Source: an uncultured delta proteobacterium (GTDB taxonomy: Bacteria > Desulfobacterota > WTBG01 > CAIYCZ01 > CAIRTM01). Taken from it: a stretch of 64,000 nt of DNA. This document shows positions 3,129 through 60,784 of the stretch, in pieces. Every line of letters begins with the position of its first letter. Within the stretch, counting starts at the first letter, position 1. The DNA lies in contig CAWDSQ010000007.1 of assembly GCA_963804955.1 (NCBI GenBank), forward strand, positions 214,546 to 278,545, in the 5' to 3' direction. A model generated the notes under the pieces. The model was given only the letters and a program-made list of their open reading frames with translations. It was not told where the DNA came from and did not search any database. A program made the translations under genes and the position numbers.

Positions 3129-3200
3129 AAGTCAGCACACCCGCCGCGCCTCTGCCTAGCATGCGAAATTCGGTGGGTTTTTCTTTTTCTGGGGGGCTTT

Positions 3201-4100: not shown

Positions 4101-4153
4101 AATCAACAACGCGAAAAAAATACGCAAACAAGTTCCATCAGACAATTTAAACT

Positions 4154-6163: not shown

Positions 6164-6295
6164 AAAAACGACGGGGCATGACCTTGTCGTTTCATCTCAA
6201 CATGTGTAATGGGTGAACCCCATCATTGATGCAAATGGATATATTGCGGGTTTTACCAACAATATTTGTGAACTAAAATTTCCTTCTCCCCTTGA

Positions 6296-6640
6296 GAGGC
6301 TGTGTTGCAATCACCTTTGCTGTCATCTCGACCCCTTCGGCTTTGCTCAGGGCAGGCTCCGGGAGAGATCTTTGTAGCAGGTAAAATCAAGGGCTTAAGA
6401 TTGATGCGCGGTGGCGCAACCTGCGGACTCACCGCCTGCGGCGGATTCGAAATGACATTAATAAATCAATCTGGTTATCTCCAAAGCTGAACTTACCCTT
6501 ATTCTGGACACCAACTTACGAACACTGTGTCGTAATTGCCCTTGATGTCATTTCGAATCCCGCTGAAAGCGGGATGAGAAATCCTAACGCCCTAATTTCA
6601 CATCAGTCTAAGATTTCTCCCTGCGGTCGAAATGGCAGTT
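6296..6640. repeat. composite/degenerate copies of the MITE-like family (left TIR-like ggctgtgttgcaat; internal 'cctgcggcggattcgaaatgacattaataaatcaat'; inverted partial copy 6530-6640)
   Basis: High similarity to 44635-44798, 49990-50129, 57804-57942. Confidence 0.5.
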
Positions 6641-10649: not shown

Positions 10650-11972
10650 GGTGCTTTTAGACCCAGGGCGGGTACGAAGGGCTTCACCAACTGGAATGCC
10701 TATCAAATCCTTTTCCTCCTGTTGTATGTCCTTTATGCCATCTTCAGTATCGCGCCTTCCGGCACGATGTCGTGATCAACATACTTCCACAGCGCTATGA
10801 GCAGTTTTCTGGCCAGCGCCACGATCCCTATTCGCCTCATCCGCTTGTTGCCCCCTCCAAAGCGCTCATGAAACCACGTGCTTAGCTTACTGCCAGGCTG
10901 CCATCTCAGCCATCCCCAGGCTAGCTCTATCAGCAAAGCTCGAATCCGCCGATTGCCCGCTTTGCTTATCCCTTGCTCAATCTGCATATCCCCGCTGCTG
11001 TAGGGCATTGGCGCAAGACCCGCTGCACCTCCCACCTGCTTCACATTCTTGAATTCCCGCCAGCCAAAAAACTCATAGATCAAATCCCATGAACTGATCG
11101 GCCCAATTGCCCGTATCCGGGCAAGCTTGCTTACCTTGCGCATTTGTTCAGGACTTGCCGCAAGCTGCCGCTTCTTTTCCTCTTGTATCTGCCTCAGCTG
11201 CCGGTCCAGCACCCCTATCCGTTCATACTCCCGCTTCATCTCCTGCACGATATGCTCTGGCAGTTTGCTGCCATCCCAGGCTCGCACTTCCTCAAGCAGC
11301 TTCAGGAATTTACTGCCTACCTCTGCATGTATCCCATACAATACAAGTAATGACTTTATCCGGCTTACATGTGCTCCCCGTTCCTTTAACAGCCGATCCC
11401 GCTCTCGGTTGAGTCGCCGTTCATCTTCCTGTTCCTGTGTCGGAACCCGTACCACACTCCAGACTTTCTGCTCTCCTCCCAAGTGCCGTATCAGCATGGT
11501 TAACAACTTTAACCCATCTACCCGGTCCGTCTTGGCCCGCCGATGCCGCCGGTTCACTTCGATACTGGCCGAGTCCACCACGATATTCTTTATCCCTATG
11601 CTCTCCAAATACCGATGTATCCAAAACCCGTCTCGTCCCGATTCATAACAGCTGTATATGGCGCAATCTTCATCCAGTCTAAAATGCTTCCGGGCCTTGA
11701 CCAGCTCTTCCTTAAACTCTTCAAGATCTGCTGATGTTATTGTTCGCTCCCTCCTGCGTTGCCCGTCCCCAAACGTCAGTTTCCATTTCTTGTTGGACAG
11801 TTCAAGGGATATGTACAAAACCTGCTTACCTGTGCTATTCTTTGCCTCGGTTTGGATCATTTGATTGTTCGCCATGTTTGTCTCCTTTATGCTGAAAGTT
11901 ATTGACGTGACTTTTTCAGCATATCCGAGACGTGACGCCTGTCAAATGATCCGTTCCTTCACAGTATCTACA
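10650..11972 (-). mobile_element. IS110-family insertion sequence (ends approximate; 5' end defined by identity with the truncated copy at 38159-38460)
   Basis: Contains intact DEDD transposase; 5' terminus 'gtagatact(g/a)tgaagga(a)cggatcatttgacaggcgtca…' shared with second copy. Confidence 0.8.
10733..11875 (-). CDS. IS110 family transposase
   Basis: 380 aa; N-terminal DEDD RuvC-like domain, C-terminal …GLAPMPYSSGD… motif typical of IS110. Confidence 0.9.
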   Translation of the reverse strand: MANNQMIQTEAKNSTGKQVLYISLELSNKKWKLTFGDGQRRRERTITSADLEEFKEELVKARKHFRLDEDCAIYSCYESGRDGFWIHRYLESIGIKNIVVDSASIEVNRRHRRAKTDRVDGLKLLTMLIRHLGGEQKVWSVVRVPTQEQEDERRLNRERDRLLKERGAHVSRIKSLLVLYGIHAEVGSKFLKLLEEVRAWDGSKLPEHIVQEMKREYERIGVLDRQLRQIQEEKKRQLAASPEQMRKVSKLARIRAIGPISSWDLIYEFFGWREFKNVKQVGGAAGLAPMPYSSGDMQIEQGISKAGNRRIRALLIELAWGWLRWQPGSKLSTWFHERFGGGNKRMRRIGIVALARKLLIALWKYVDHDIVPEGAILKMA

Positions 11973-43029: not shown

Positions 43030-43235
43030 TTTAAGCGGTATGTACCGCACTGTCTTTCGGTGCAGCCGAAACACGGTTCAGTTTGCATCATAGGGGATTG
43101 ATACTTGATGGAACATGCTGCAGCCGGATAGGTCACTGTGCTTTAGAACACACCGGGGCGAGATACCGGCGGTGAAAACGTGAGTCGGTCAGGTATCGCA
43201 GGCCGGATATTGATTTTATCATGGACGCCACCCGG
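43030..43235 (+). repeat. degenerate UmuC-like 3'-end remnant, copy 1 (…RTVFRCSRNTVQFAS*GIDT*WNMLQPDRSLCFRTHRGEIPAVKT*) ending in 'gcaggccggatattgattttatcatgg'
   Basis: similarity to copies at 46585-46770 and 50655-50900; matches conserved UmuC C-terminal pattern …G(R)xTxxFAxxGIxxxWxMxxxxxSPxYTTxWxEIPxV. Confidence 0.5.
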
Positions 43236-43319
43236 GGATTCTGATACATACTACCTGCTCAAGCACCCGCCTGCCGGGGGAGGGCTTTTGCCTGCTGTAC
43301 GAAGGGAGATTATACCGCT

Positions 43320-43796: not shown

Positions 43797-43930
43797 AACA
43801 GCAGGTATTGAAAGAGTTGCCCGCGAAAAAGCGGGACGTCACCCTGAATAGTTCCTGCAATACAGTTAATTCAGCAACGTTCCCTGGCTGCCCCTTGAAG
43901 TTATTGATATAGTTATGGGACGCACCCTGG

Positions 43931-44536: not shown

Positions 44537-44634
44537 ACTAATCTCTCCCCTGGTAGTGTTCTTAATGTCGTCAGCACACCAGCGCCACAGGCTATGTTCC
44601 CTGAAAAAGGCAGCCAATCAAGCCACCCTCTATG

Positions 44635-44798
44635 AGATTGTGTCGCAATTAAAAAAAGATGTCATCTCGACCAAAGGGAGAGATCTTTGCCTGAAGCAAA
44701 AGCAAAGCCTTAAGATTGCTGCGCGGTGGCGCAACCTGCGGTCTCACCGCCTGCGGCGGATTCGAAATGACAGTACAAAACTAATTATGACACAGCCT
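44635..44798. mobile_element. MITE-like element copy C (164 bp; TIR agattgtgtcgcaat / attatgacacagcct; TSD CTATG)
   Basis: flanking CTATG direct repeats at 44630-44634 and 44799-44803. Confidence 0.7.
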
Positions 44799-45425
44799 CT
44801 ATGCTGGCGGTTGCTGCCTGCCTCCCCGCCACCGGCTCGAACCATCGCATGTCTCTTCTTGTTTAATAGGGTCAAAGTCAGGCTGCCGTCAAGGGCTTCA
44901 TTGATATTTTCGGCATTATTGCAATAAATCTGAATGAGTTTCCGGCCATTGCTGCTGTGGTTTTGAGTAAAGAAAGGCGGCCTGAAACAGGCATTCATTG
45001 ACAAAAAAAAACCGGCTGCAACAACCGCCGGCCAAAACACCTGAAAAACAGTGCTGTGGGGGTGTTGAAAAACCCCATTAAGTCATTCTGAGCGCAGCGA
45101 AGAATCTCTATCTTTTTGAATTTTCTAAGCCCGAATGGGACCTTCACTTTGCAGATGCGCTCCTGAAAACCATGGCTATCCCCTGTTTTCCTGTCCGCAA
45201 AAGCCGTCACCACCAAAAAAAATCATGAATAAAATTTTTTGCGTGCTATATAGAAATCTTAAGCAGCAATGCACGGGCACAAGATAGTGCGCTAAAGACA
45301 CTTCAGGGTCAGGAGTCTCGTCTGACCTCCGCCCCGCTGTGGAGCACAGAGTTTGTTGTAAATTTTTTATCATATCTACAAATAGAGTTAAATGAAGTTA
45401 AACGTATAAAGCAGAAGAGGGTTCT

Positions 45426-46584: not shown

Positions 46585-46770
46585 TATGACCGCAGCAAGG
46601 TTCAGTTTGCATCATCTGGGATTGCTAAGCGCAGGAAAATGCTGCAGTCGTATAAATCCCCGTGCCACACCGCAAGCTGGAGCGGGATACCGGAGGGAAG
46701 GCGATAGTTAAGGCAGATGGCGCAGGCCGGATAGTGATTTAATCATGGTCTTTATATGCTCTTGAGACCA
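46585..46770 (+). repeat. UmuC-like 3'-end remnant, copy 2 (KVQFASSGIAKRRKMLQSYKSPCHTASWSGIPEGRR*)
   Basis: see copy 1. Confidence 0.5.
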
Positions 46771-46870
46771 AGCCGTGCAAGAAGCTATTGTGTTAAACAG
46801 CCTCCCTTTTTCTCCCATCCCCTGCAGCCCTGAGGATGAGCCATGAGCAGAGCTGTGTGCGCCACCTCTG

Positions 46871-48324: not shown

Positions 48325-48913
48325 ATTTTAATTGTTCCTGTGCCGATTTTAAATTGTATGTAATAAAAAGTAAAAATGCAGACTAAAAGAGGTCTGCCCG
48401 GACAACATAGCCTGCTCTGTTTTTTATCCGACATCTGCCTGTGGGACGAAGAATAGAAAAAAACACCCCATAAAGCAATAGCACCAGAGGCTATTATTTA
48501 GGCACTAAGGGGCCTGAGGAGCGGGGGCAGAAAAAATATTGCCAATCATGTCTGTTGCGGGCCTGAACCGGTGCCTGCATTTCGGGCGAGACATTCCCGA
48601 ACCGGCATTACGAGATTTACAGCCCTTCGAATATTTTGAACAAAACGATAAAAAAGAGCGGCTGTGCGTGTCGTGCACATCCGCCCTGTATCATCTGACT
48701 CTTTTGATGCCGATTTAAAATACCTGCACCCGGTTTTCCACCTGCAAATGCGGCACCCGTTTGAACTCCTTTGCATTGCTGGCAACAGGCAACTACCGAC
48801 TTCTGAAATTTTATGTTTAGCCAGAAAGTCAAGAAACAATCAGCGGCTGTTGTCCCCCTATTGTTGTTCGCAGGCCTGATAGTAATTTATGTATGAACGT
48901 CCCCTGGTCAGCC

Positions 48914-49508: not shown

Positions 49509-49751
49509 GTCTCCATATATAACATGTAACCTAATGCGTTACAAGCAGTTTTAGCAATTGCCAGTGTATGCTGCTGTTGGCATGCGGATCAGCATGAAAA
49601 CTGTGCATAGCGCGGATAGTAAAAACAAAGCGTGCTGACACCTGTTCTTGTTTTTTCGTTCTATGGTTTTCCCGATGGATGTTCCCGGTTGTTTTTTAGA
49701 CCCACTAAAATACAGGTTGCATAATATATAAAAACTTATATAATTGAAAAT

Positions 49752-50327
49752 ATGAATACTGTCGTGAAAGCACTTAAGTTCATTGGGTCGAGTCTGGACG
49801 ATCTACGGAATTTCCCGGATGAAGCCCGGCGGGCTGCCGGATTTGAGTTTCATGCGGTTCAAAGCGGTTTTGATCCAAACGACTGGAAGCCCATGCAGGC
49901 CATCGGCCCCGGCGTAAAAGAGATTCGTATTCATGTGCTGGGCGAGTGGCGCGTTATCTATGTAGCTTAGCCAACAACCACCCGCATAGAGCCTGTGTCG
50001 CAATTTACTTTGCTGTCATCTCGACCGAAGGGAGAGATCTTTGTAGTAAGTAAAATCAAGGGGCTTAAGATTTCTCACCGCCTGCGGCGGATTCGAAATG
50101 ACATTAATAAATCAATTGTGACACAGCCTCATAGCGGGGGGGGGATTTCGCTAAAGCGAAATCAAAAAACACATAGTGTTTATGTTGCCTTTTTCAGAAA
50201 CGCATGTTTCTGAAATCAGTTCAGCGACGCAGTTTATGTGCTGCACGCATTCAAGAAAAAAAGTCAAAAAACGAGCCGCCAGGATATCGAACTGGCGCGT
50301 CAAAGGTACAACCGCATTGGAGGTTAA
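49752..50327 (+). pseudogene. Gp49-like (PF05973, HigB-family) toxin gene interrupted by a 140-bp MITE; N-part 49752..49970, C-terminal end (…AVYVLHAFKKKSQKTSRQDIELARQRYNRIGG*) resumes at ~50220
   Basis: N-terminal ORF ends in-frame inside MITE; C-terminal conserved block found in-frame downstream of MITE, stop overlaps antitoxin start region. Confidence 0.7.
49990..50129. mobile_element. MITE-like element copy A (140 bp; TIR agcctgtgtcgcaat / attgtgacacagcct; TSD CATAG)
   Basis: CATAG at 49985-49989 and 50130-50134; 96% identical to copy B. Confidence 0.75.
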
Positions 50328-50331
50328 AGTA

Positions 50332-50616
50332 ATGAACGATGACATTATTAAATCTTCCGGCAGCGTTTTTGCTGATCTCGGTTTTCCACCGGATGAAGCC
50401 GCTATTCTTCAGATGCGTGCCGACCTTATGGCTGATCTGCGCAAACTCATCAAAGCGAAAAAATTAACGCAGGCCAAAGCGGCAACAATTTTCGGGGTGA
50501 CGCAGTCCAGGGTATCAGATCTCATGCGCGGCAAATGGGAGAGATTCAGTCTTGAAATGCTCATTACGCTTGCAACAAAGGCGGGCATGCATGTCAGCTT
50601 GAAAACAGCGGCATAA
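50332..50616 (+). CDS. HTH-XRE antitoxin partner of the Gp49-like toxin
   Basis: …LTQAKAATIFGVTQSRVSDLMRGK…. Confidence 0.7.
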   Translation: MNDDIIKSSGSVFADLGFPPDEAAILQMRADLMADLRKLIKAKKLTQAKAATIFGVTQSRVSDLMRGKWERFSLEMLITLATKAGMHVSLKTAA

Positions 50617-50654
50617 CGCTGGCTTCAAAACAAAGGGCGCTGACCCCTGTTCTT

Positions 50655-50900
50655 GTTTTTGCTGAGCGGAGAGGGAATTTATTAGATCAAAAAGCCATGA
50701 TGCAGGCAATAGATTCCCTGAATCAACGCTATGGCCGCAACACGGTTCAGTTTGCATCATCGGGCATAGATAAGCGCTGGAAAATGCTGCAGTCGCAAAA
50801 ATCGCCGTGCTTTACCACATGACGGGGCGAGATACCGGCTGTGAAGGCATGAGACAGACAGGCGGTGCAGGCCAGATAGTGATTTATGTATGAACGCCCC
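50655..50900 (+). repeat. UmuC-like 3'-end remnant, copy 3 (…AMMQAIDSLNQRYGRNTVQFASSGIDKRWKMLQSQKSPCFTT*RGEIPAVKA*)
   Basis: best-preserved copy; W codon replaced by TGA. Confidence 0.55.
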
Positions 50901-50995
50901 GCAGTCCTACTCAAACAATTCAACTAATTCAACAACGTTAAGTTCCTAAAAAATTTTCTTGAAAAGCATTAAATACAACCGTCCCCTTTTAGATG
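50880..50995 (+). repeat. 110-bp direct repeat, copy 1 (contains 21-bp core aattcaactaattcaacaacg)
   Basis: approx 90% identical to 55878..55990; core also at 54697-54717. Confidence 0.65.
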
Positions 50996-51057
50996 TTTAC
51001 AGCCAATTTCTGCAACCTGGGGGGGGGAGGGCGTTTGTGTACTTTGTAGGATGGCCC

Positions 51058-52229
51058 CTAAGTGCCGTCATTCTCAACAAGTGAATAGCTTGTGCTTCTG
51101 CCTCCTGCGGGATCCTTCTTCAGCAGGTTCTGTTTCACAAGGTCATCAATATCGCGACCGGCAGTATCCTGAGAACATTTTGTGATTTTTGCCCATTTTG
51201 ACGACGTGAGTTTTCCTTCGAATCCATCAATCAATAGATTGAGCATATGTCGTTGGCGATCGTTCAACGGCTGCTGCGCAAGTTTTTTCCAAAGAGTTGC
51301 TTTGCGGATGACATTTGCCAATATGGTCTCGGCGCCATCGAACGCTCGATTGAGGCAGCTCAGGAACCAATCGAGATATTCCGTGATATCAAGATCGCCT
51401 TTCTGCATTTCTTCCAGACGAGTCGTAGTATTTTCCCTGTTCTGCCTTTATCTGGGCAGAGATGCTGTAAAAGCGCTGAGCGCTGCGCTCTGAGCGAGCC
51501 AGCATCATGTCAGCGAGCGCGCGACCGATGCGACCGTTTCCATCGTCGAAGGGATGAATGGTCTCAAACCAAAGATGCGCTGTGGCGGCTTTAAGAATGG
51601 GATCGACATTGGGTTGCTCTGTATTAAACCACTTTATGAACGCACCCATTTCTTTATCGATACGCGTTGCGGCAGGCGCTTCGTAGTGAACATGTTCGCG
51701 TCCATAGGGGCCGGAAACAACCTGCATGGGCCCGGATTCAGCCGTTCGCCATTTGCCGACAGTAATCTTCAAAAGGCCGCTGTATCCTGTCGGGAACAAT
51801 GCTGCGTGCCAACCGAAGAGCCTCTCTTTTGTAATCGGTTTATCGTAGTTCTGTGTTGCATCGATGATCATTTGAACAACACCATCGACATTTCTGTCTG
51901 ACGGTGTCAGTGCGCCGATATCGACGCCAAGCCGCCGCGCGAGAGAAGAACGAACCTGATCCCGATTGAGCTGCTGCCCTTCAATTTCGCTGGATTTTAC
52001 GACTTCCTCCGTCAGGGTGTCGCAAAACGGCTTCGTCGCGCAGCTTGATGCCGAAAGCCTCTATGCGCCCAAAGAGCTGCCCTTGCCGATAACGTACAGC
52101 AGCGAGTTTTTGTGCAAGATGGTCGTTATCCCAACGAAAATGGGGCCAATCGGCTCTTTGATATATGTAGGTAGTCATAATCTCCGCACCTTTCGCGTAG
52201 ATTATAGCACTTTTTCTCCGCATAAGCAA
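51058..52229 (-). pseudogene. Fic/DOC family protein (DUF4172 N-domain + Fic HPFxxGNGR + C-terminal wHTH) split into three ORFs (51981..52229, 51389..51871, 51058..51408)
   Basis: …YIYQRADWPHFRWDNDHLA… (DUF4172), …HPFDDGNGRIGRA… Fic motif; overlapping frames. Confidence 0.75.
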
Positions 52230-52517
52230 TCATATTCGCCGCATATATTGCGGAGAATAAAGCGGCTAATCTCCGCAATTGATTGATCCTTGCTTTGGGC
52301 TGGGCAGACTAGAGATGAGGGTTGTTCAATACAAAGTTTGCCGCAGGAAGCACTTCCTGGGTGGGGGGATTTAGTAAGTGGTTGCCTGCTCTAACTCCCG
52401 CACGTTGTGCAAAATATGTATTCAGGAGCTGCGGAAAAGCTAAGTCAACAACGTCCCCCTAGTTAGACCTTTCTGCTCTATGTTAGTAGATGATAAAACC
52501 CTTTTTCAAATACCCCT

Positions 52518-53516
52518 TTACAGCCGGTTGCGACGTCTGGCTGAATGCCGATCCATGCGCGAATGTTCGTCATCCTGCTTCCTGCCTGCGGGCTTTGCAA
52601 AAGCTGCAAGGTGCAGTATGTGCCCCTGGTGCTCAAAGGCAAACCCGATCACCGAGTCCGATTCAAGCCGTATGTCTTCACCCTCAGATACGGATTTGCG
52701 ATGCTCTGCTGTTGCATCTGCCATGCCGGCGATAAACTGCCTTGCTGCGTCACCATGAGATCCTTCAAGCTTCAGATCAGGATCATACCAGTCCGTGGCA
52801 TCAAGGGCGTAGCTCTTCACAAGCTTTGCAAACACCTTCCCGAACGTGTCGGGTCCGGCAAAGCTGTCAAGGCCTGCAACTTTCCCGTTTATCAGAAATA
52901 CAGCACCGGCCTGATTTTCGGCCCTGGTAAAGTTTTGCAGGTAGTCTTCAAGGGAAATTCTGTCCTTTTCGTAAATTTCTGACATGGCCATGCTACCGGA
53001 TACGGCCTTCCTGCGCCGCGCCTTCTTGTCTATGGAATTCCATATCTCTCCCTGGTCAGAACAATAGGAGGCATTAATTTTGAGCGAGTGGTTTACGTGA
53101 ACGGCCTTCTCCGCCCTGATATTCGGACAGAGCAGGCGCTCATGGCTGAAAAACTTGCCGGAGGCGTAGGACCACCGGCCCTGTTCCACGCAGCTCACCG
53201 GGATTATCACCTTTGACATGGCAGCGATGAGAATGGTGGCGTTGACGATACGGTTCTGCTTGGCCCCTACCAGCTCTTCGCCGTCCAGGATGAGCACCTG
53301 CTTGCTTGCCTTATTGATCACCTGCAGCTCAGGCACTGAGCCTCCCGTGCTCACCTCTCCAACTTCGATGAGCCCGCCCTGCAGCGCCTCGTCAAGAAGC
53401 AGGTAGTCGGCCTGTTCCGTACCACTGGTCAAAAGCGGCACCATGCTCAAATTTTTATAGGCTTGAGCCGGCCCCGTGGTGATGGTTGTGATATAGGTTT
53501 TAAGACTTTCGTTCAT
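52518..53516 (-). CDS. hypothetical protein (332 aa), first gene of an operon divergent from the WYL regulator
   Basis: no recognisable motif by eye; intact long ORF. Confidence 0.5.
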   Translation of the reverse strand: MNESLKTYITTITTGPAQAYKNLSMVPLLTSGTEQADYLLLDEALQGGLIEVGEVSTGGSVPELQVINKASKQVLILDGEELVGAKQNRIVNATILIAAMSKVIIPVSCVEQGRWSYASGKFFSHERLLCPNIRAEKAVHVNHSLKINASYCSDQGEIWNSIDKKARRRKAVSGSMAMSEIYEKDRISLEDYLQNFTRAENQAGAVFLINGKVAGLDSFAGPDTFGKVFAKLVKSYALDATDWYDPDLKLEGSHGDAARQFIAGMADATAEHRKSVSEGEDIRLESDSVIGFAFEHQGHILHLAAFAKPAGRKQDDEHSRMDRHSARRRNRL

Positions 53517-53674
53517 GGCCTCTCCTTTGACTTTTCCGGTTAATCTTACCTTTAAGAATAGCAGGGCACTGTGTCAGGGAAGGTCAAAACGAATTAAAAA
53601 ATATTGTTATTTATTGTAAAAAATTGATATATTTTAATTTCATTGTGGTCTTTTTTTACGTCAGGGAGGATTTT

Positions 53675-54652
53675 ATGCCACGAGGAGATCAGCTGGCGCG
53701 TCAGTGGAAAATTATTCAGACCATAGTCTCGTCAAAAAAAGGCAAAACGGCAACCGAGCTGGCAACCGAACTCGAAGCAAACCCGCGAACCGTCTACCGC
53801 GACCTTCAGGCATTGCAGACAGCGGGGTTTCCGATATACACGGAAAGAGTGGGCGATAAAAATTGCTGGACACTGCTTGATGCCATTAAAAACCAGATCC
53901 CGGTCCCGTTCGCATTTACCGAGCTCATGGCTCTGTATTTTTCAACCGATATGCTCAAAGCCCTTCACAATACAATTTTTTATGAAAACCTGGACTCACT
54001 GGCTAAAAAAATAAAAACCATCCTGCCTCCCGAGTCGCACAGATTCCTTGAAAACGCGCGCAAGACTTTTTCTGTTCAGAAGAAGCACTATAAGGACTAC
54101 GGCGGCTTCAAAGAGATAATCAACAAGGCTTCAGATGCCGCGCTGAAGCAGAAATGCGTCACACTTGTCTACTGCTCCATGCCGGAGAAAAAAGAGACCC
54201 GGCGCACCGTAGATCCCTACCGCATCTGGTTTTTCAATGAGACCTTTTACCTGATCGGCTACTGCCACCTGCGCAAGGAGCTCCGCTCTTTTGTGCTCGA
54301 CCGGGTCAAATCCCTCACCGTTACTGATGAGGAGTTTGTCATCCCTGAAGATTTTGATTTTGATGCCCTGATGAAGGGCAGCTTCGGCGTTATCACCGGC
54401 CCGACTGAATCCGTGCGGATACAATTTGAGAAAGAAGTGGCCGGCTATATTGAAGAAAAGGTGTGGCACAGCAGCCAGCGCATTAACCGGGCCTCTGACG
54501 GGGCAATTATCTTTGAGGCCGACGTTGCAATAAATGAAGAATTTAAAAACTGGATTTTAAACTGGGGATCAAACGCGATGGTTCTGGCGCCCGCATCGCT
54601 TGTTGCGGAGATTCAGGCAGAGATCGCCAAAATGGCTAACAGGTATAGCTGA
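53675..54652 (+). CDS. WYL-domain transcriptional regulator (wHTH-WYL-WCX; BrxR/CapW/PafBC-like)
   Basis: N-terminal wHTH (…ATELATELEANPRTVYRDLQALQTAGFPI…), WYL core (…RTVDPYRIWFFNETFYLIGYCHLRKELRSFVLDRV…), C-terminal WCX. Confidence 0.8.
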   Translation: MPRGDQLARQWKIIQTIVSSKKGKTATELATELEANPRTVYRDLQALQTAGFPIYTERVGDKNCWTLLDAIKNQIPVPFAFTELMALYFSTDMLKALHNTIFYENLDSLAKKIKTILPPESHRFLENARKTFSVQKKHYKDYGGFKEIINKASDAALKQKCVTLVYCSMPEKKETRRTVDPYRIWFFNETFYLIGYCHLRKELRSFVLDRVKSLTVTDEEFVIPEDFDFDALMKGSFGVITGPTESVRIQFEKEVAGYIEEKVWHSSQRINRASDGAIIFEADVAINEEFKNWILNWGSNAMVLAPASLVAEIQAEIAKMANRYS

Positions 54653-54819
54653 TTTATGGATGGATGCCCCCAGGATATTTCCTGCAGCACAGATAATTCA
54701 ACTAATTCAACAACGCCCTTTATGCTCCCAATATGAAGCTAATAAAGAGGGGGATGCAGGTAACCCCTATTCCAAGTGGCCACGACTAGGGGGTTTTGGG
54801 TGGCCGCCGGGGTTTATTT

Positions 54820-55230
54820 TTAAATAATACTTAAAATCGGCTCAAGACGCGGGTCAATGGCTTTCAAAAGTTTGGAAAATTTATCCAGGGATGGCTTTAC
54901 TTTACCCTGTTCATATCTGCTGTAGGCAGCCGGTGAATTTGAACCAAGATTTTTCGCAACATCACGTACGCTCAAGTGAAGGCTGCTGCGTTGCTGTTTG
55001 AGCGCCAGGGCCATAAGCAGGGTGTCATTGCTGGAGCCCACCATGAAAGTATCTGCCGCCCCCTCTGTAACGGAAACAGTAAAGCCTTTTTCATCAATGA
55101 TTGATTCAATGGCATCCTTTGCCATAAAATAAGCATCTTTTCGGCTCTTTCCCTGAGTATAAATCTTCAGCAAGGGTATTTCTACTGCCCACCATTTACC
55201 TGACCGGACAAGTTTGCCTTCTATTTTCAT
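54820..55230 (-). CDS. hicB: HicB antitoxin (RNase-H-like N-domain + HTH-XRE)
   Basis: 136 aa; overlaps hicA by 4 nt. Confidence 0.85.
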   Translation of the reverse strand: MKIEGKLVRSGKWWAVEIPLLKIYTQGKSRKDAYFMAKDAIESIIDEKGFTVSVTEGAADTFMVGSSNDTLLMALALKQQRSSLHLSVRDVAKNLGSNSPAAYSRYEQGKVKPSLDKFSKLLKAIDPRLEPILSII

Positions 55231-55427
55231 GTGCTCTCCTTTCTCTTGTTACCCGGATTGGCCAGCGCTGTTTTTACGATGGCCTCAGCGGTATATTCAT
55301 TAATCTCTGTGTGCCGGGGCACCGGAATTTTCTGCTCTCCGTTTGTCCATTTCTCATGGCTGCCGCCCTCGCCGTATTTCCACCAGCCAAGTTCTTGCAA
55401 CCGCTTGATGAGAACTTTCTTTTTCAT
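55227..55427 (-). CDS. hicA: HicA mRNA-interferase toxin
   Basis: MKKKVLIKRLQELGWW…GGSHEKWTNG…. Confidence 0.85.
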   Translation of the reverse strand: MKKKVLIKRLQELGWWKYGEGGSHEKWTNGEQKIPVPRHTEINEYTAEAIVKTALANPGNKRKEST

Positions 55428-55597
55428 ATTTTATATTGTATACATATTTATATACATTGCAAGTGTAAATAAACCGCTTCATTTTATTAGTGGCTGTTGT
55501 CCCGGATAAATTCCGTGAAGTGTCTGTCAAACAGGGGTAAGTTCAGCTGTCCACGATTATTGCCTGAAAAACAAAACACCCTTTAATCCAGGATACA

Positions 55598-55826
55598 GTT
55601 TAAGAAAGAAGTGGCCGGCTATATTGAAGAAAAGGTGTGGCACAGCAGCCAGCGCATAACCCGGGCACCTGACGGGTCAATTATCTTTGAGGCCGACGTT
55701 GCAATAAATGAAGAATTTAAAAACTGGATTTTAAACTGGGGATCAAACGCGATGGTTCTTGCGCCCGCATCGCTTGTCTCGGAGATTCAGGCTGAGATCG
55801 CCAGAATGGCTGGAAGGTACAGCTGA
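55598..55826 (+). pseudogene. duplicated 3' fragment (last ~72 codons) of the WYL regulator gene, about 93% identical to 54433-54652
   Basis: MAGYIEEKVWHSSQRITRAPDGSIIFEADVAINEEFKNWILNWGSNAMVLAPASLVSEIQAEIARMAGRYS vs WYL C-terminus. Confidence 0.75.
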
Positions 55827-55877
55827 GGAGATTTGCTAGAAAACGAAACGGACTGAGCGATTTCAATTTGCTACAAT

Positions 55878-55990
55878 ATGAACGCCTCGCAGACCTACTC
55901 AAGCAATTCAACTAATTCAACAACGTTATGCTCCCTAAAAAATTTTCTTGAAAAGGATTAAATAGAACCGTCCCCTTTTACTTAAAGGAA
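55878..55990 (+). repeat. 110-bp direct repeat, copy 2
   Basis: tatgaacgcctcgcagacctactcaagcaattcaactaattcaacaacgtta…ccgtccccttttac. Confidence 0.65.
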
Positions 55991-56060
55991 CTATTGGCGA
56001 CAAATCCTTCGGCTTCCTGAGCGGCATCAAGCATGTGTTGAAGTCTTATTCTGTCATCAG
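55980..56060 (-). pseudogene. truncated HEPN (DUF86/HepT-like) toxin remnant (27 codons: [29 protein letters not shown])
   Basis: ATGA overlap with MNT stop; HepT-like N-terminus then premature stop at the repeat boundary. Confidence 0.45.
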
Positions 56061-56362
56061 GCCTCATACTGCACCTCGGCCGTACTCAGAATCTCTTTGC
56101 GAAAGTACCGGCTTAATTCCTGCGGGGTGCGAAGGTCGGCCTTGTTGCCGAGCAAATCGCTGAGTTCATTTTCCATATGGCAAAGAGAAAAAAAACCCGG
56201 CAGCATTTCATCGTAAAATTCAACCAGCAGATCAATATCGCTGTCCGGCCTCATCGCCCCTTTCAGGGCAGAGCCGAAAAGAGATAACCTTTTAATGCCA
56301 TTGCGCCGGCAGAATTCAATGAGCCGGTCACGCGAAATTCGCTGATCGATTATGTTCGACAT
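56057..56362 (-). CDS. MNT-type nucleotidyltransferase (MntA-like antitoxin of HEPN/MNT module)
   Basis: …[22 protein letters not shown]…. Confidence 0.8.
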
Positions 56363-56515: not shown

Positions 56516-57469
56516 TTACCCCAACTCCTTATATTCTGTCAGCCTTTTAAATCGCCACTCCAGCCCGTCCATGCGGGGATAATATTTTTTATCCCTCGGC
56601 AGGATGATGGGCTTTTTATCCAGATCGAGCAATTCCTGGTAATCGCGGTTGCGTTTGTCGAGAAGCTTTGAAACATGCCACTTCAAATCCGGGCCGGGGG
56701 AAAGGATGTTTTTGTCCAGCGCCCAGTGAAAGCTGGGGGCAAGGGCAATGCCGTTGCAGGGATCATTGTCGCGTGATTCGGAGAAGGGGATAATATGCGC
56801 GGCTTCAACCATGACCGACCCATCGGGCAGGATCACCCGCCAGCCCGAGGCGGCGCAGCGGTAGTCATATGCTTCGCGCACCACGCGTGAAAACGCCGCA
56901 TCGCGGACTTTGTCGTTGTAGGTGCTGCAACATTCAGCCACTTTTTCAGGTTCCTTCAGGCAGTTTTCATATACTGCTATCTGCTGCTCTTCGGCTACAA
57001 CGGTGCGGATCTGTTCGCGGCTTGCCGGGAACCACCGGTCTATGAGAGTTTGTCGCAAAATATCGCGATCCGGGGCAGAGGAGATCAGGCTGAACAGATC
57101 ATCATCAAGGAATGCATATTCAAAATTTTCCGTTATCTGCGATGGGCCGCGCACGGTTGACAGCGCTGCGACTACAGCCTCGCGGCCGGGAATCGGCTTG
57201 AGATGCCAGAAGGATTCCCCTTTGTATAGATGAAAAAATGGAAAATACGGATTGCAGGCATCGCCTGGCTGCTGCACTGTCTGGAAAAATGATTTAAAAA
57301 TATCAAGAAGGTTTTGGTTATAGAGGATTTTATTTTCTTTGAGAAACCCTGCCTCGGCCAGGGCCAGTACGGCCAGCAGCATGACCGGCTTGTGGGGGCT
57401 GACATGCTCCCCTGAACGGTTTACATGCAGCTTCGAGAAGGCGTGTATGTAGTATTCAAGATCAGGCAT
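56516..57469 (-). CDS. HNH endonuclease (HNH_2-like) with N-terminal helical domain; possible restriction-type nuclease
   Basis: …YRCAASGWRV…VEAAHIIPFSESRDNDPCNGIALAPSFHWALD… HNH motif. Confidence 0.6.
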   Translation of the reverse strand: MPDLEYYIHAFSKLHVNRSGEHVSPHKPVMLLAVLALAEAGFLKENKILYNQNLLDIFKSFFQTVQQPGDACNPYFPFFHLYKGESFWHLKPIPGREAVVAALSTVRGPSQITENFEYAFLDDDLFSLISSAPDRDILRQTLIDRWFPASREQIRTVVAEEQQIAVYENCLKEPEKVAECCSTYNDKVRDAAFSRVVREAYDYRCAASGWRVILPDGSVMVEAAHIIPFSESRDNDPCNGIALAPSFHWALDKNILSPGPDLKWHVSKLLDKRNRDYQELLDLDKKPIILPRDKKYYPRMDGLEWRFKRLTEYKELG

Positions 57470-57589
57470 GGCAGCTCATGTAATAATGAATATTATTGAA
57501 CTGTTCTTGTGAAGCAGGAAGAGTATAAAATAGAATAAAAGGCTAAAGCAACTACTCTTTTGTTATTTTTAAATAAATCAGTAAAATCT

Positions 57590-57765
57590 TTGCGAGCTGT
57601 GAGTTGGGAGTCGTGAGTTGGGAGTTGTGAGTTCGGAGTTCGGAGCGCAGGGGCACGGTGCACGTGCCGTAAAGTTCGGAGTTGGGAGTTGGGAGCGTAG
57701 GGGCACGGTGCGCGTGCCGTAAAGTTGGGAGTCGTGAGTTCGGAGTTCGGAGTAAAAATTCAGCA
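57590..57765 (+). ncRNA. candidate sRNA / tandem repeat: about 20 heptad units GAGTTSG(GAGT) carrying 10 GGA motifs, interrupted by two copies of a 30-nt palindromic unit (cgcaggggcacggtgcacgtgccgtaaagtt)
   Basis: tandem periodicity seen directly; GGA density resembles CsrA-sequestering sRNAs; strand and ends uncertain. Confidence 0.3.
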
Positions 57766-57803
57766 GCCGGGAGTCAGAAAAAACAGCCACCTCTCCCCCA
57801 TCA

Positions 57804-57942
57804 GAGACTGTGTCGCAATTAACTTTGCTGTCATCTCGACCGAAGGGAGAGATCTTTGTAGTAAGTAAAATCAAGGGCTTAAGATTTCTCACCGCCTGCG
57901 GCGGATTCGAAATGACATTAATAAATCAATTGTGACACAGCC
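57804..57942. mobile_element. MITE-like element copy B (139 bp; TIR agactgtgtcgcaat / attgtgacacagcct; TSD (A/C)TCAG)
   Basis: flanks atcag | ctcag. Confidence 0.75.
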
Positions 57943-58011
57943 TCTCAGTGGCGTAGGGGGAGAAAACCGGCAAGTTGGAAATTGCTGCACTACGGAGGCA
58001 GAAGATTGCTC

Positions 58012-58125: not shown

Positions 58126-58202
58126 TGGCGGGGACGACGGGACTCGAACCCGCGACCTTCGGCGTGACAGGCCGACGTACTAACCAACTGTACTACGCCC
58201 CC
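58126..58202 (-). tRNA. tRNA-Asp (anticodon GTC), CCA encoded
   Basis: cloverleaf folded by hand: acceptor GGGGGCG/CGTCCCC(G-T wobble), anticodon loop CTGTCAC, T-loop GGTTCGAGTCC. Confidence 0.9.
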
Positions 58203-58380: not shown

Positions 58381-60784
58381 TTACTGCTGCACCGGCGGGA
58401 GGATAACTTTCTGCGGCGCCTTTTCCGCAAAAAACTGCTTTTCATCGACCGCCTGCCCGGCAAAGGCCTCGGCTGAGGCCGGCACCAGGGCAAGGCGGAT
58501 GACCTCATCCATATGATCGACCATGACGATTTTCAGGTCTTTGAGAATCTTCTCCGGGATATCCTTCAGGTCTTTTTCATTTTCCCGGGGAATAAGCACC
58601 GTGGAGATAAGGCCGCGGTTGGCGGCAAAAATTTTCTCTTTCAAGCCGCCGATCGGGAGCACCCGGCCGCGCAGCGTAATCTCGCCGGTCATGGCAATGT
58701 CCTTTTTGACCTCCACGCGGGTCAGGGCCGATATGATGGCGGTTGTGATGGCAATGCCGGCCGACGGCCCGTCCTTGGGTATGGCCCCCTCGGGCACATG
58801 TATATGCAGGTCGATGAGCTGATAAAAATCCTTTTCAAGGCCGAGCAGCTGCGCCCGCGAGCGCACATAGCTCATGGCCGCCTGTGCCGACTCCTTCATC
58901 ACATCTCCCAGCTTGCCCGTGATGATCAGATCGCCCTTGCCGGGCATGACCGCCACCTCTATGAACAGCAGCTCGCCGCCGACTTCGGTCCAGGCAAGGC
59001 CCGTCGAGATGCCCACCTTGTTCTTTTCTTCAGCAGTGCCGTAGCGGAACCGGGGAACGCCCAGATACTTCTCCACCGAGGTCTTATCAACTTTCACCTT
59101 CCGCTCTCCGGCCTCCTGCGCGCCCTGGCGGACAAGATCGGTTGCCACCTTGCGGCATATGGATGCCAGTTCCCGCTCAAGGTTGCGCACGCCCGCCTCC
59201 CGGGTATAGCGCCGGATGATATGCAGAACCGAATTATCGGAAAAGTCAAGCTGCTCGGCCTTCAGGCCGTTGGCCTCAAGCTGCTTGGGAACAAGGTACT
59301 GCTTGGCAATCGCGAGCTTCTCGCTTTCCATATAGCCGGCAATGCGGATGATCTCCATGCGGTCCTGCAGCGCCGGGGGTATGCCCTGCAGCGTATTGGC
59401 CGTTGTTATGAACATGACCCCGGAAAGATCATAGTCCATATCGATATAGTGATCATTGAAGGTGTCGTTCTGCTCGGGGTCCAGCACCTCCAGCAGCGCC
59501 GACGACGGGTCGCCGCGGAAGTCGGTGCTCATCTTATCGACCTCATCCAGCAGAAACACCGGGTTATCAGTGCCTGCTTTCTTGAGCGACTGCAGAATCT
59601 TGCCCGGCAGCGCCCCGATATAGGTGCGGCGATGCCCCCTGATTTCGGCCTCGTCGCGCACGCCCCCGAGGGACAGGCGCACAAACCGCCGGCCGGTCGC
59701 CCGGGCTATGGATTTCCCAAGCGATGTTTTCCCCACGCCCGGCGGCCCCACAAAGCAGAGTATGGGCCCTTTGAGCTTCTGCACCAGGCTTTCTACGGCC
59801 AGGTATTCCAGTATCCGCTCTTTGGGCTCTTTCAGGCCGTAGTGATCGTCGTTTAATATCTTTTCGGCAGGGCCTATGTCCATCTTCACCTCGGACTTTT
59901 CGCCCCAGGGCAGCGACAGAATCCACTCGATATAGTTGCGCACCACATTCAATCTCAGCAGACATGGGCGGCATCATCTTCAGCTTTTTGATCTCCTTTT
60001 CGACCCGGGTGCGGGCCTCCTCGGAAAGCTGCTTTTTGCTCTGCAGCTTCTCTTCCAGCTCATCAATTTCCGCCTGCCGGTCATCGGTATCGCCTATTTC
60101 CTTCTGAATGGCGCGCATCTGCTCGTTCAGGTAATAGTCCTTCTGGGTTTTCTCCATCTGCCGCTTGACGCGGGTCTTGATGCGCTGCTCGGTGCGAATG
60201 AGCTCCATGGCGCTTTCCATGATGGCATATACCCGCTCAAGCCGCTCGCACACATCGGTCAGCTCAAGAATCTGCTGTTTATCGGAAAGGCTTATGTTGA
60301 GCTGCGGCGCGATAAGATCGGCAAGCCGGGAGGGGTCATCAACGGTTGCAGCTGTTGCCACCAGATCAGAGGGTATGCGCTTGGTGAATTTGGCGAAATT
60401 ATCAAGAGACTCGAGAATCATGGCATTGAGCGCCTTGACCTCGTTTGCGTCCCGGCAGGTGTCATCAATTTCTTCGACAAGGGCTGAAAACGATTCATCC
60501 TCCACCAGAAATCTGGTGATGCGGCCGCGTTTTTTGCCCTCAACAAGCACCTTTATGCTGCCGTCGGGCAGCTTGAGCATCTGAAGAATCGTGGCCAGCA
60601 CGCCGACCGTATAGACGGTGTCCTGGCTGGGGCTGTCGATGGAGGCATCTTTCTGCGTCACCAGAAAAATGGTCTTGCCCTGCTCAAGGGCTTTTTCAAC
60701 AGCGGTGATGGAGCGCTCCCGCCCGACAAACAGCGGCGACACCATATGGGGAAAAACAACGATGTCCCGCAGGGGCATCATCAT
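58381..60784 (-). CDS. lon: ATP-dependent protease Lon, split by an indel near 59940-59960 (N-domain ORF 59567..60784, AAA+/protease ORF 58381..59952)
   Basis: …[12 protein letters not shown]| / [14 protein letters not shown]… junction; Walker [14 protein letters not shown]; protease Ser motif PKDGPSAG. Confidence 0.9.

What the first reader, a model, noticed from the sequence alone, without database searches (positions are those of the whole stretch)
50880..55990. 110-bp direct repeats with a 21-bp core (aattcaactaattcaacaacg), and a hicAB cassette inserted at the 3' end of the WYL regulator gene with duplication of that gene end
The 110-bp repeat occurs at 50880-50995 and 55878-55990, and its core is also present at 54697-54717. 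The last ~220 bp of the WYL regulator gene (54433-54652) reappears at 55598-55826 at about 93% identity, and hicA-hicB lies between the two copies. That is the signature of an integrating module that brings its own replacement gene end and crosses over near the core sequence. Related 'tcaacaacg' motifs occur after the Abi_2 gene (4108), between fic and the unknown gene (52430), and in reverse complement upstream of the HNH gene (56474). This looks like a cassette-exchange system, but the attC-like symmetry expected of integron cassettes is not evident and no recombinase is present.
Basis: seen in the sequence. Interest (0 to 1): 0.7.

Follow-up and report, generated by a model that had tools for sequence, protein, structure and literature searches.

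The report
Transposon-end repeats punctuating a toxin-antitoxin island
The repeats are real. They are end sequences of a small transposon-like family seen in several sulfate-reducer-type (Desulfobacterota) genomes, and here they mark the joints of a patchwork island of toxin-antitoxin and defence genes in which a hicAB cassette sits between two copies of a regulator gene's end.

Summary
The hicAB pair lies between two copies of a roughly 320-350 nt unit, 54417-54735 and 55591-937. Each unit holds the last 236 nt of the WYL gene (93% identical between copies) plus a repeat element carrying the 21-mer core.

The core is not an integron attC: it does not fold, and no IntI is present. It belongs to a ~40-nt site that matches exactly in about six Desulfobacterota MAGs and 23 metagenome contigs. 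In one MAG, inverted copies of the site flank a RAYT-like Y1 (HUH) transposase gene. Elsewhere it occurs in MITE-like derivatives and hairpin doublets.

The window has five same-strand copies, all inside a 15-kb island next to tRNA-Asp. The island is full of 3' gene-end relics: umuC' (four), WYL', PIN' and HTH_37'. The hicAB pair is a sharp-edged ~685-bp cassette, and the identical HicB protein occurs in four different contexts. A sister genome keeps the same island backbone with other TA cassettes.

A second gene-end duplication (vapC, L006) has the same layout. Cassette turnover at these joints is therefore supported. The join mechanism is inferred: most likely homology-anchored recombination, possibly helped by the Y1 enzyme.

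The parts
43065..43248 (+). umuC' relic a: a decayed UmuC C-terminal (DUF4113) coding remnant followed by a DR1-like arm
   Evidence: Repeat family D1/D8; alignments A1 and A3
43859..43891 (+). Degenerate copy of the core site (c1), lying after the TerB gene
   Evidence: 4 mismatches to the 21-mer; nhmmer E = 0.026
46589..46772 (+). umuC' relic b plus a DR1-like arm
48694..48790 (-). Relic of the last ~67 nt of a PIN (vapC) gene plus 30 nt downstream
   Evidence: 92% identical to L055 4659-4755, which is the end of the MazE-PIN cassette of the sister island
48870..48903 (+). umuC' stub c plus a DR1 arm (TAATTTATGTATGAACGTCCC), cut off next to higA
   Evidence: Family D7/D8/D16
49575..49657 (+). 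Relic of the 3' end and downstream hairpin of an HTH_37 antitoxin gene. It lies upstream of the intact Gp49/HTH_37 pair.
   Evidence: Alignment A2 against 50545-50660; Pfam
50680..50879 (+). umuC' relic d. It reads ...NQRYGRNTVQFASSGIDKRWKMLQSQKSPCFTT*RGEIPAVKA*.
   Evidence: Sequence. 79% identical to a solitary unit in L036-L038 that encodes the 47-aa DUF4113 ORF P0121
50880..50995 (+). M1, the '110-bp repeat'. It is a mosaic of three same-strand arms: DR1 (50880-50900), core plus tip (50917-50949) and a DR3 arm (50967-50991).
51058..52180 (-). fic gene (DUF4172 + Fic), frameshifted, lying between site copies c2 and c3
   Evidence: Pfam
52440..52465 (+). Partial core plus tip (CTAAGTCAACAACGTCCCCCTAGTTA), site copy c3
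   Evidence: nhmmer E = 0.002
52518..53516 (-). ARPP-1 family gene, divergent partner of the WYL regulator
   Evidence: Pfam PF20208, E = 2e-92
53675..54652 (+). WYL-domain transcriptional regulator (HTH_11 + WYL + WCX)
   Evidence: Pfam; 1431 homologues with E <= 1e-20
54417..54735 (+). U1, the first copy of the duplicated unit. It holds the WYL 3' end (to 54652), a variant DR1 arm that starts at the stop codon, the core (54695-54715) and the tip CCCTTTATGCTCCC.
54812..55496 (-). hicAB cassette (hicB 54820-55230, hicA 55227-55427, plus promoter). Its edges are sharp and shared in all contexts.
   Evidence: Pfam. BLAST breakpoints fall at 54812-54818 and 55473-55496 in L039 and L055-L060, and the HicB protein is identical in those loci
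55497..55590 (.). Spacer of unknown origin between the hicA upstream flank and U2. The last 73 nt (55518-55590) are absent from L039/L055.
55591..55937 (+). U2, the second copy of the unit. It holds the WYL' fragment (55591-55826, WCX domain only), 45 nt, a DR1 arm, the core (55905-55925) and the tip TTATGCTCCCTA.
55938..55990 (+). Distal DR3 arm (AAAAATTTTCTTGAAAAGGATTAAATAGAACCGTCCCCTTTTA). Its tip abuts a truncated gene.
   Evidence: The same arm forms a 22-bp-stem inverted doublet in L029
55983..56067 (-). Apparent truncated toxin gene at the HEPN/DUF86 position downstream of MNT. Only about 28 codons remain ([29 protein letters not shown]).
   Evidence: Translation. HEPN/DUF86 identity judged from the N-terminal sequence and the position next to MNT, not tested against Pfam. 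Partner MNT gene 56057-56362
56057..56362 (-). MNT-type nucleotidyltransferase antitoxin
   Evidence: Pfam Polbeta / NTP_transf_2
56516..57469 (-). HNH_2 endonuclease, resembling a phosphorothioate-DNA restriction enzyme. It is shared with the sister island L055 at 85% nt identity.
58126..58202 (-). tRNA-Asp. Its 3' end faces the island and marks the island's right border.
   Evidence: ARAGORN and Rfam. L055 starts in the same tRNA flank

Best explanation
The region from about 42.9 to 58.1 kb is a genomic island next to tRNA-Asp. It is assembled from small toxin-antitoxin, defence and regulator modules.

The joints of the island carry a repeat element, M. M is a mosaic of short arms, here called DR1, core and DR3. 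The best-conserved arm is a ~40-nt site, AGT-AATTCAACTAATTCAACAACG-TCCCCTAATTTCC.

That site is the terminal inverted repeat of a small element that encodes a RAYT-like Y1 (HUH) transposase. The family also includes MITE-like and REPIN-like derivatives and is spread among Desulfobacterota. The copies in this window are orphan ends, because no transposase of this family is encoded here.

hicAB is a ~685-bp cassette that circulates among such islands.

Inferred step: the cassette arrived on DNA that also carried a related copy of the 'WYL end + M' segment. That DNA was either a circle or a fragment from a related strain. It recombined through the shared homology, in a Campbell-type or homology-facilitated event. 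The other junction, at 55590|55591, was an illegitimate or transposase-made join. The result is one copy of the segment on each side of hicAB, with an intact WYL gene.

The same kind of turnover, repeated many times, would explain the 3' gene-end relics that lie next to repeat arms all over the island.
For: Shown:
- The site matches exactly in 33 further loci. Both flanks are unrelated from locus to locus, and conservation extends from about position -3 to +15 around the 21-mer.
- Inverted copies of the site flank a 339-aa Y1_Tnp gene in L008 (Pfam 5.7e-11). A 60%-identical gene in L032 ends in the identical core. L006 (two copies), L010 and L016 carry 3' fragments of this gene followed by the core.
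- Doublets form hairpins. The L029 doublet scores z = -6.7.
- The tips of the site abut truncated genes: an IS3-type orfB in L017 and L029, and the apparent HEPN remnant in the window.
- The five window copies all lie on the + strand and all lie inside the island.
- The identical HicB protein occurs in four contexts, with constant homology breakpoints.
- The sister island L055 shares tRNA-Asp, HNH_2, M and hicAB, but it has MazE-PIN and Phd-YafQ where the window has the WYL' fragment. A relic of that PIN gene lies at window 48694-48790.
- L039/L055 lack window 55518-55937. The right edge of this indel is the tip of the core.
- L006 shows a parallel layout: vapC end (163 nt, 95% identical between copies), then a core, a hicAB-like pair, a Y1' MITE, and the second vapC end. 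The first copy stops exactly at the core's inner edge. The second copy starts at the MITE's outer tip.

For a homology-driven join:
- X and X' are closer to each other (93% nt, 91% aa) than to any database WYL protein. The best database match is 81%.
- The repeat part of U1 and U2 differs by large indels. This fits two alleles brought together rather than a fresh copy made in place.
Against: - Only one complete Y1 gene with both inverted sites was recovered (L008). Its NCBIfam RAYT score of 69.9 is below the cut-off of 80.
- No such gene is in the window, and the rest of the genome could not be read.
- In the window, the junction to the left of X' has no recognisable element tip. Nothing there shows transposase action.
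- Polarising the X versus X' differences with outgroup proteins (by eye, sequences) is inconclusive, and the 7:7 ratio of synonymous to non-synonymous codons does not discriminate.
- No empty-site allele (WYL without hicAB) and no circle junction was found.
- The two gene-end duplications differ in detail. In the window the duplicated unit includes the core. In L006 it ends at the core's inner edge.
Confidence: 0.45

Rival explanations
1. Site-specific cassette recombination at the core. The interval between two same-strand cores (54716-55925: hicAB, the WYL' fragment, DR1 and one core) is excised as a circle. It is then re-inserted at another core by a dedicated enzyme, with the Y1 HUH protein as the candidate. 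This would work like an integron, but with a different site and a different enzyme.
For: - M2 and M3 share the core plus TTATGCTCCC and then diverge. This is the pattern expected for an attL/attR pair.
- All five window sites lie on the same strand, with one module or gene pair between most consecutive sites.
- In L014, an MNT-HEPN pair is bracketed by two direct cores 856 bp apart.
- L003 and L027 differ by a 3.7-kb indel next to a core.
- The right edge of the indel between L039/L055 and the window is the core's tip.
Against: - In L006 the second gene-end copy is not followed by a core, so a core-by-core event cannot produce that layout.
- The model makes the similarity between X and X' a coincidence.
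- hicAB homologues, including identical HicB proteins, sit in contexts without any core. Their homology ends at the gene pair, not at cores.
- No enzyme is encoded in the window, and no circle junction was observed.
Confidence: 0.15
2. The second gene end is what remains of a second, paralogous ARPP-1/WYL module (vapC in L006) that once stood downstream of hicAB. A deletion removed most of it. The repeats are bystanders, or simply deletion end-points.
For: - The island is littered with unpaired 3' gene-end relics: umuC' (four), PIN' and HTH_37'.
- In L006 the second copy starts exactly at a MITE tip, as expected for a transposon-mediated adjacent deletion.
- Tandem accretion at tRNA sites is common (established knowledge).
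Against: - It needs two near-identical modules (93-95% nt) in tandem in two unrelated loci, each with a hicAB-type pair between them.
- In both loci the end of the first copy coincides with an edge of the repeat element. A deletion confined to the second copy does not predict this.
Confidence: 0.2
3. The insertion itself made a long target duplication. One nick was made by the Y1 enzyme at an edge of the site. A second nick fell 160-350 nt away on the other strand. Fill-in synthesis after insertion of the cargo then duplicated the segment between the nicks.
For: - In both cases one end of the duplicated segment lies at an edge of the site and the other lies inside the upstream gene.
- In L006 the inserted block (3335-4456) begins with a core and ends with a core plus tip in the same orientation. 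This resembles the LE/RE arrangement of Y1 elements.
Against: - The copies are 5-7% diverged, and in the window the repeat part differs by a 45-nt indel and a different spacer.
- Known Y1 transposases make no target duplication (established knowledge of IS200/IS605).
- Other elements of the family in the fetched loci show no such flanking repeats.
Confidence: 0.12
4. Assembly artefact. Two strain haplotypes were joined out of register in an error-prone long-read metagenome assembly, creating an apparent partial duplication.
For: - lon, acrB, fic and the Y-family polymerase are all frameshifted. This suggests an indel-prone assembly.
- 93% identity between the copies is in the range of strain or species divergence.
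Against: - The same architecture occurs in an independent assembly, L006.
- Both copies are embedded in unique sequence.
- The sister island L055 and the fragment L039 confirm the hicAB to distal-arm adjacency.
Confidence: 0.05

Closest known systems
REP/REPIN-RAYT systems (REP-associated tyrosine transposases) and BIME mosaics
   Same: - A Y1 HUH transposase gene is flanked by inverted copies of a short repeat.
- The same repeat occurs as singlets, as inverted hairpin doublets and as mosaics of several arms.
- Copy number is low, as reported for RAYT groups 1 and 4 (PMC5581495).
- An IS3-family element sits against the repeat. This recalls IS1397, which targets BIMEs (from memory).
   Different: - The 21-mer arm is a tandem direct repeat (AATTCAAC twice), not a palindrome.
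- No GTAG head is present.
- The protein carries a C-terminal HTH extension and scores below NCBIfam's RAYT cut-off.
- In this window the copies cluster in one island rather than being dispersed.
- The site is identical across several species. This suggests horizontal spread rather than the vertical inheritance typical of RAYTs.
IS200/IS605 family and their MITEs (PATEs)
   Same: - The transposase belongs to the Y1_Tnp family.
- Deletion derivatives keep only the ends.
- In L006 a block is bounded by two same-strand copies of the site, like an LE/RE pair.
   Different: - The autonomous copy has ~35-bp terminal inverted repeats, which IS200/IS605 elements lack.
- The ends have no obvious subterminal hairpins.
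- No target tetranucleotide was identified.
ISCR1 in complex class 1 integrons (partial duplication of the 3'-conserved segment)
   Same: - The topology matches: a complete copy of a segment, then an HUH-element end, cargo genes, and a 5'-truncated second copy of the same segment.
- That structure is explained in the literature by rescue of a circular intermediate through homologous recombination (from memory).
- This is the closest analogue for how the hicAB insertion may work.
   Different: - ISCR elements use IS91-type rolling-circle transposases, which are not Y1 proteins.
- Here no transposase lies at the joint.
- The duplicated segment is a chromosomal gene end plus the repeat.
Integron gene cassettes and attC (including CALIN arrays)
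   Same: - The array consists of small modules, many of them toxin-antitoxin pairs, separated by a conserved site.
- Cassette content differs between related genomes.
   Different: - The site has no attC hairpin and no R''/R' boxes at the boundaries.
- No IntI, attI or Pc is present.
- Modules point in both directions, several as full TA pairs.
Integrative islands that target the 3' end of a gene or tRNA and carry a replacement end; displaced 3' ends in rhs/cdi loci
   Same: - Direct repeats containing a gene's 3' end flank the inserted DNA.
- The gene stays intact while the old end is displaced downstream.
- The island sits at a tRNA.
   Different: - No integrase is present.
- The repeat is 320-350 nt long and 5-7% diverged.
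- The targets differ between loci (WYL, vapC).
- The umuC' relics have no umuC body.

Membership tests
Integron cassette array (attC sites) | The site folds as an imperfect hairpin (R''-L''/L'-R') in single-stranded form | tested here: not met
   DNA folds of all three copies on both strands are no better than shuffled sequence (z = +1.9 to -0.4)
Integron cassette array (attC sites) | IntI tyrosine recombinase with attI and Pc next to the array | tested here: not met
   No integrase was found among the ORFs scanned against Pfam, which covered most of the larger ORFs. The rest of the genome was not readable.
Integron cassette array (attC sites) | Mostly co-oriented cassettes, each ending in the site | tested here: not met
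   Genes lie on both strands, and several modules are complete TA pairs that would need their own promoters
REP/REPIN-RAYT | A Y1 HUH transposase gene flanked by inverted copies of the repeat | tested here: met
   In L008 the sites lie at 128-159 (- strand) and 1168-1207 (+ strand) around a Y1_Tnp gene at 200-1219. In L032 the same core lies at the gene's 3' end. This is seen only in related genomes, not in the window.
REP/REPIN-RAYT | The protein reaches the curated RAYT model threshold | tested here: not met
   NCBIfam NF047646 scores 69.9 bits against a cut-off of 80
REP/REPIN-RAYT | The repeat unit is itself a short palindrome with a conserved GTAG head | tested here: not met
   The core is a direct repeat and shows no fold. 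Only doublets form hairpins: L001, L005 and L029.
REP/REPIN-RAYT | Many copies dispersed through the extragenic space of one genome | tested here: inconclusive
   The window has 5 copies in 64 kb, all in one island. There are 1-3 exact copies per MAG among the species-representative genomes. The source genome could not be read.
IS200/IS605 | Y1 transposase of Pfam family PF01797 | tested here: met
   E = 5.7e-11 for the L008 protein
IS200/IS605 | No terminal inverted repeats; distinct LE and RE with subterminal hairpins | tested here: not met
   The ends of the L008 copy are ~35-bp inverted repeats, and the right end shows no hairpin
Type II toxin-antitoxin hicAB | A HicA toxin gene followed by an overlapping HicB antitoxin gene with a DNA-binding domain | tested here: met
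   HicA_toxin E = 3.7e-9. The 136-aa partner has an HTH_3 domain. The two genes overlap by 4 nt.
Integrative element targeting a gene's 3' end | An integrase gene inside the element, next to one att site | tested here: not met
   The segment between the two copies contains only hicA, hicB and spacers
Integrative element targeting a gene's 3' end | Identical core sequence at both junctions, with the gene end restored | tested here: met
   Both units contain the 21-mer plus TTATGCTCCC, and WYL keeps a full reading frame

The most novel reading that the evidence does not exclude
The ~40-nt site and its companion arms are the recombination sites of an integron-like cassette system that runs on a Y1 HUH enzyme. 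On this reading, toxin-antitoxin and defence cassettes in Desulfobacterota are cut out and pasted in at these sites as single-stranded circles. The 160-350-nt gene-end duplications would be a by-product of that chemistry.
Probability: 0.15. Interest if true: 0.8.

Novelty: new variant of a known kind. Interest (0 to 1): 0.5.

Why it matters
How toxin-antitoxin and small defence modules move as tight cassettes, without any recombinase of their own, is poorly understood.

This locus offers three concrete handles:
- A ~685-bp hicAB cassette with sharp edges. The identical HicB protein occurs in four contexts.
- A sister island with the same backbone and a different cassette content.
- A conserved 40-nt site at the joints, tied to a specific candidate enzyme: a RAYT-like Y1 transposase with a C-terminal HTH.

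If the enzyme acts on these sites, cassette turnover in such islands becomes testable in vitro. The enzyme would also be a RAYT-like protein linked to gene mobility rather than only to the spread of its own repeats. If it does not act on them, the locus is still a clean example of homology-anchored mosaic evolution in a tRNA island.

Tried and rejected
- attC / integron reading: rejected by folding and by the lack of IntI.
- Diversity-generating retroelement (template and variable repeat): rejected, judged by eye. The mismatches between the two WYL ends are not adenine-specific (positions, sequence), and no reverse transcriptase turned up among the ORFs scanned.
- Xer/dif-type site: rejected, judged by eye from the sequence. 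The core is a direct repeat, not an inverted one.
- Structured RNA: the window has no Rfam hit other than two tRNAs.
- Looking up the source contig through the exact WYL protein failed. The 81% WYL homologue has no stored DNA. The 69% homologue has Vsr, Mrr and Dcm genes downstream, with no site and no hicAB. That makes it uninformative as an empty site.
- A search for full-length UmuC proteins with the relic's C-terminus found only another orphan 47-aa relic.
- Orientation bias of the site relative to neighbouring ORFs: not demonstrable (18 versus 14).
- No match to the core or to Y1 relatives in viral contigs. No plasmid match to the umuC' + M unit. Plasmid Y1 homologues are only 28-37% identical.
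- No paper holds the site sequence.
- A degenerate element tip just to the left of the WYL' fragment (55560-55590) was suspected by eye, but the profile search does not support it.

Full report
**1. The observation**

The exact 21-mer AATTCAACTAATTCAACAACG occurs three times, at 50917, 54695 and 55905. All three are on the + strand, and none is expected by chance.

The ~110-bp repeat (50880-50995 and 55868-55990) and the 236-nt repeat of the WYL gene end are real. The gene-end copies are 54417-54652 and 55591-55826. They are 93% identical with no indels, and both keep the stop codon.

Pfam confirms the WYL regulator at 53675-54652 (HTH_11 + WYL + WCX). It also confirms a WCX-only fragment at 55611-55826, and hicB (54820-55230) and hicA (55227-55427) on the minus strand.

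Read more closely, the duplicated unit is longer than the gene end. Each copy runs on through a short arm (DR1), the core and about 12 nt of 'tip'. U1 is 54417-54735 and U2 is 55591-55937. U2 has 45 extra nt after the stop codon and a different spacer.

**2. What the finding missed inside the window**

A profile built from all copies of the site detects five copies in the window: 43859, 50917, 52440, 54695 and 55905. All are on the + strand. The 9-mers at 4103 and 56471 are not significant.

All five copies lie in one island. It runs from about 42.9 kb, after a 531-aa gene, to tRNA-Asp at 58126-58202. Beyond the tRNA come tRNA-Val, lon, clpX, clpP and tig.

The island encodes, in order:
- TerB, an SNase, a BspA-type LRR protein, a response regulator and a PilZ protein
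- HigBA, and a Gp49/HTH_37 pair
- Fic
- ARPP-1 with its WYL regulator
- HicAB
- MNT with what looks like a truncated HEPN partner
- an HNH_2 endonuclease

It also holds many 3' gene-end relics:
- A UmuC-type C-terminus at 43065-43248, 46589-46772 and 50734-50917, plus a stub at 48870-48903. Each is followed by a DR1-type arm.
- The end of an HTH_37 antitoxin gene at 49575-49657.
- The end of a PIN gene at 48694-48790.

Pfam scans of most of the larger ORFs found no integrase. The only transposase found is an IS110 gene at 10.7-11.9 kb.

**3. The site is not an attC**

None of the three copies folds better than shuffled sequence on either strand.

**4. What the site is**

An exact search found the 21-mer in 10 stretches of species-representative genomes. 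These come from about six Desulfobacterota MAGs, plus one probable chance hit in Calothrix. A further 23 metagenome contigs carry it, many from a single metagenome sample (Ga0209777).

The flanks are unrelated on both sides from locus to locus. Conservation runs from about position -3 to +15, giving the consensus AGT-core-TCCCCTAATTTCC.

In L008, inverted copies of the site flank a 339-aa gene with their tips pointing outward. The protein matches Y1_Tnp (5.7e-11) and, below threshold, NCBIfam's REP-associated tyrosine transposase model (69.9 bits against a cut-off of 80). L032 holds a 60%-identical gene that ends in the identical core. L006 (two copies), L010 and L016 hold 3' fragments of this gene of different lengths, each followed by the core. 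In L006 the fragment copy at 4107-4465 forms a ~350-bp MITE with both ends. A second copy at 212-533 shares its interior and right end.

Six loci carry hairpin-forming doublets of the core. The third arm of the window's 110-bp repeat (GATTAAATAGAACCGTCCCC) forms a perfect 22-bp-stem doublet in L029 (z = -6.7). That doublet sits inside a truncated IS3 orfB.

Tips of the site abut truncated genes: IS3 orfB in L017/L031 and L029, and the apparent HEPN remnant in the window.

The site is therefore the end sequence of a RAYT-like or IS200-like Y1 element family. The window's '110-bp repeat' is a BIME-like mosaic of three such arms. No paper in the library contains the sequence. RAYT groups with low-copy flanking repeats have been described (PMC5581495).

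**5. hicAB is a cassette**

The window's exact HicB protein is encoded on ten contigs in at least four contexts. Homology to the window always stops at 54812-54818 on one side and at 55473-55496 on the other. More distant homologues (79-95% aa identity) sit beside purE, pfk or a DEAD-box helicase gene, with no core nearby.

L055 (GCA_016932595.1) is the homologous island of a sister genome. Its order is tRNA-Asp flank, HNH_2 (85% nt), M with the core (92.6%), MazE-PIN, Phd-YafQ, a distal arm, hicAB (92.7%) and then sodB.

Where L055 has the two TA pairs, the window has 73 nt plus the WYL' fragment. Relative to L039/L055, the window carries an extra block at 55518-55937, and the right edge of that block is the tip of the core.

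In L055 the distal arm is itself duplicated on both sides of the two TA pairs.

L003 and L027 have flanks that are 98% identical. They differ by a 3.7-kb indel on the inner side of a core.

Cassette content at these joints therefore does turn over between close relatives.

**6. A second gene-end duplication**

In L006 a PIN (vapC) gene has its last 134 nt plus 29 downstream nt (3172-3334) repeated at 4457-4619, at 95% identity.

Between the copies lie a core, a hicB/hicA-like pair of a different family on the opposite strand, and the Y1' MITE. The first copy ends exactly at the core's inner edge. The second copy begins at the MITE's outer tip.

The spacing between copies is 1285 nt, against 1174 nt in the window. 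This independent case argues against chance and against an assembly artefact.

**7. How it most likely works**

Shown:
- The identity of the repeat family.
- The cassette nature of hicAB.
- Turnover between relatives.
- The coincidence of breakpoints with edges of the repeat.

Inferred: the join mechanism. I favour homology-anchored recombination. On this view, DNA carrying hicAB next to a related 'WYL end + M' segment recombined with the resident segment. The DNA could be a circle (Campbell type) or a fragment (homology-facilitated illegitimate recombination). The result is one copy on each side.

Reasons for this preference:
- The two WYL ends are closer to each other (93% nt, 91% aa) than to any database homologue. 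The best database match is 81%.
- The repeat part of the two units differs by large indels, as expected for two alleles.
- A core-by-core event cannot produce the L006 layout.

The closest known analogue is the partial duplication of the 3'-conserved segment around ISCR1 in complex class 1 integrons (from memory).

The rivals are not excluded, and the data do not settle between them:
- Site-specific recombination at the core.
- Deletion within a tandem pair of modules.
- Insertion with a long target duplication.
- Mis-assembly.

The ratio of 7 synonymous to 7 non-synonymous codon differences is ambiguous. So is the polarisation of the differences against outgroup proteins, which I did by eye from the sequences.

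**8. Limits**

- The source contig (560 kb) could not be fetched.
- Only one complete Y1 element with both ends was recovered.
- The genome and metagenome scans were exact-match searches for the 21-mer, so diverged copies are under-sampled.
- Frameshifts in lon, acrB, fic and the polymerase gene point to an indel-prone assembly.

Noticed in passing
window 2496-5384: An Abi_2 abortive-infection gene (3201-4100) sits between an S24 peptidase (UmuD/LexA-like) gene at 2496-2867 and a Y-family polymerase gene. The polymerase gene starts at 4155 and is frameshifted near 4215. This looks like a defence gene inserted into a umuDC-type operon.
   Followed up: partly
window 6288-6558, 44623-44815, 49978-50144, 57793-57958: A separate MITE-like repeat family (...GTGTCGCAAT...TGTCATCTCGACCGAAGGGAGAGATC...CGGCGGATTCGAAATGACA...). 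The copy at 49978-50144 splits the Gp49-type toxin gene, whose Pfam match stops at position 58 of 90.
   Followed up: partly
window 48694-48790 and 49575-49657: Two further 3' gene-end relics. One is the end of a PIN toxin gene, 92% identical to the MazE-PIN cassette of sister island L055. The other is the end of an HTH_37 antitoxin gene, lying upstream of the intact pair.
   Followed up: partly
L036 3939-4260 (also L037, L038): A solitary umuC' relic plus M-like element, encoding the 47-aa DUF4113 ORF P0121. It lies between unrelated genes in another metagenome genome. Its left edge matches that of window copy d, so the relic plus repeat seems to travel as one unit.
   Followed up: partly
window 32016-33996, 51058-52180, 58381-60784: acrB, fic and lon are each split by frameshifts. 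These are either pseudogenes or, more likely, indel errors of a long-read assembly.
   Followed up: no
window 57588-57772: Tandem repeats with 14-nt and 50-nt units (AGTTGGGAGTCGTG...; ...GGGGCACGGTGCACGTGCCGTAA), lying between the HNH_2 gene and tRNA-Asp.
   Followed up: no
window 52518-54652: A divergent ARPP-1 (PF20208) and WYL regulator pair, a predicted conflict-system module. The WYL protein has more than 1400 close homologues in metagenomes. A 69% homologue sits next to a Vsr-Mrr-Dcm restriction cluster (L034).
   Followed up: partly
L011 3400-3537 and 3709-3840: Two ~135-nt copies (90% identical) of a GC-rich element downstream of a core doublet. It looked possibly structured by eye. 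It was not folded, and this locus was not scanned against Rfam.
   Followed up: no
L003 1837-5605 versus L027: Two assemblies with 96-98% identical flanks differ by a 3.7-kb segment on the inner side of a core. The segment holds an internal core-like site and several further ORFs that were not identified.
   Followed up: partly
window 10733-11875: An IS110-family transposase gene, about 31 kb from the island. No link to the repeats was found.
   Followed up: no
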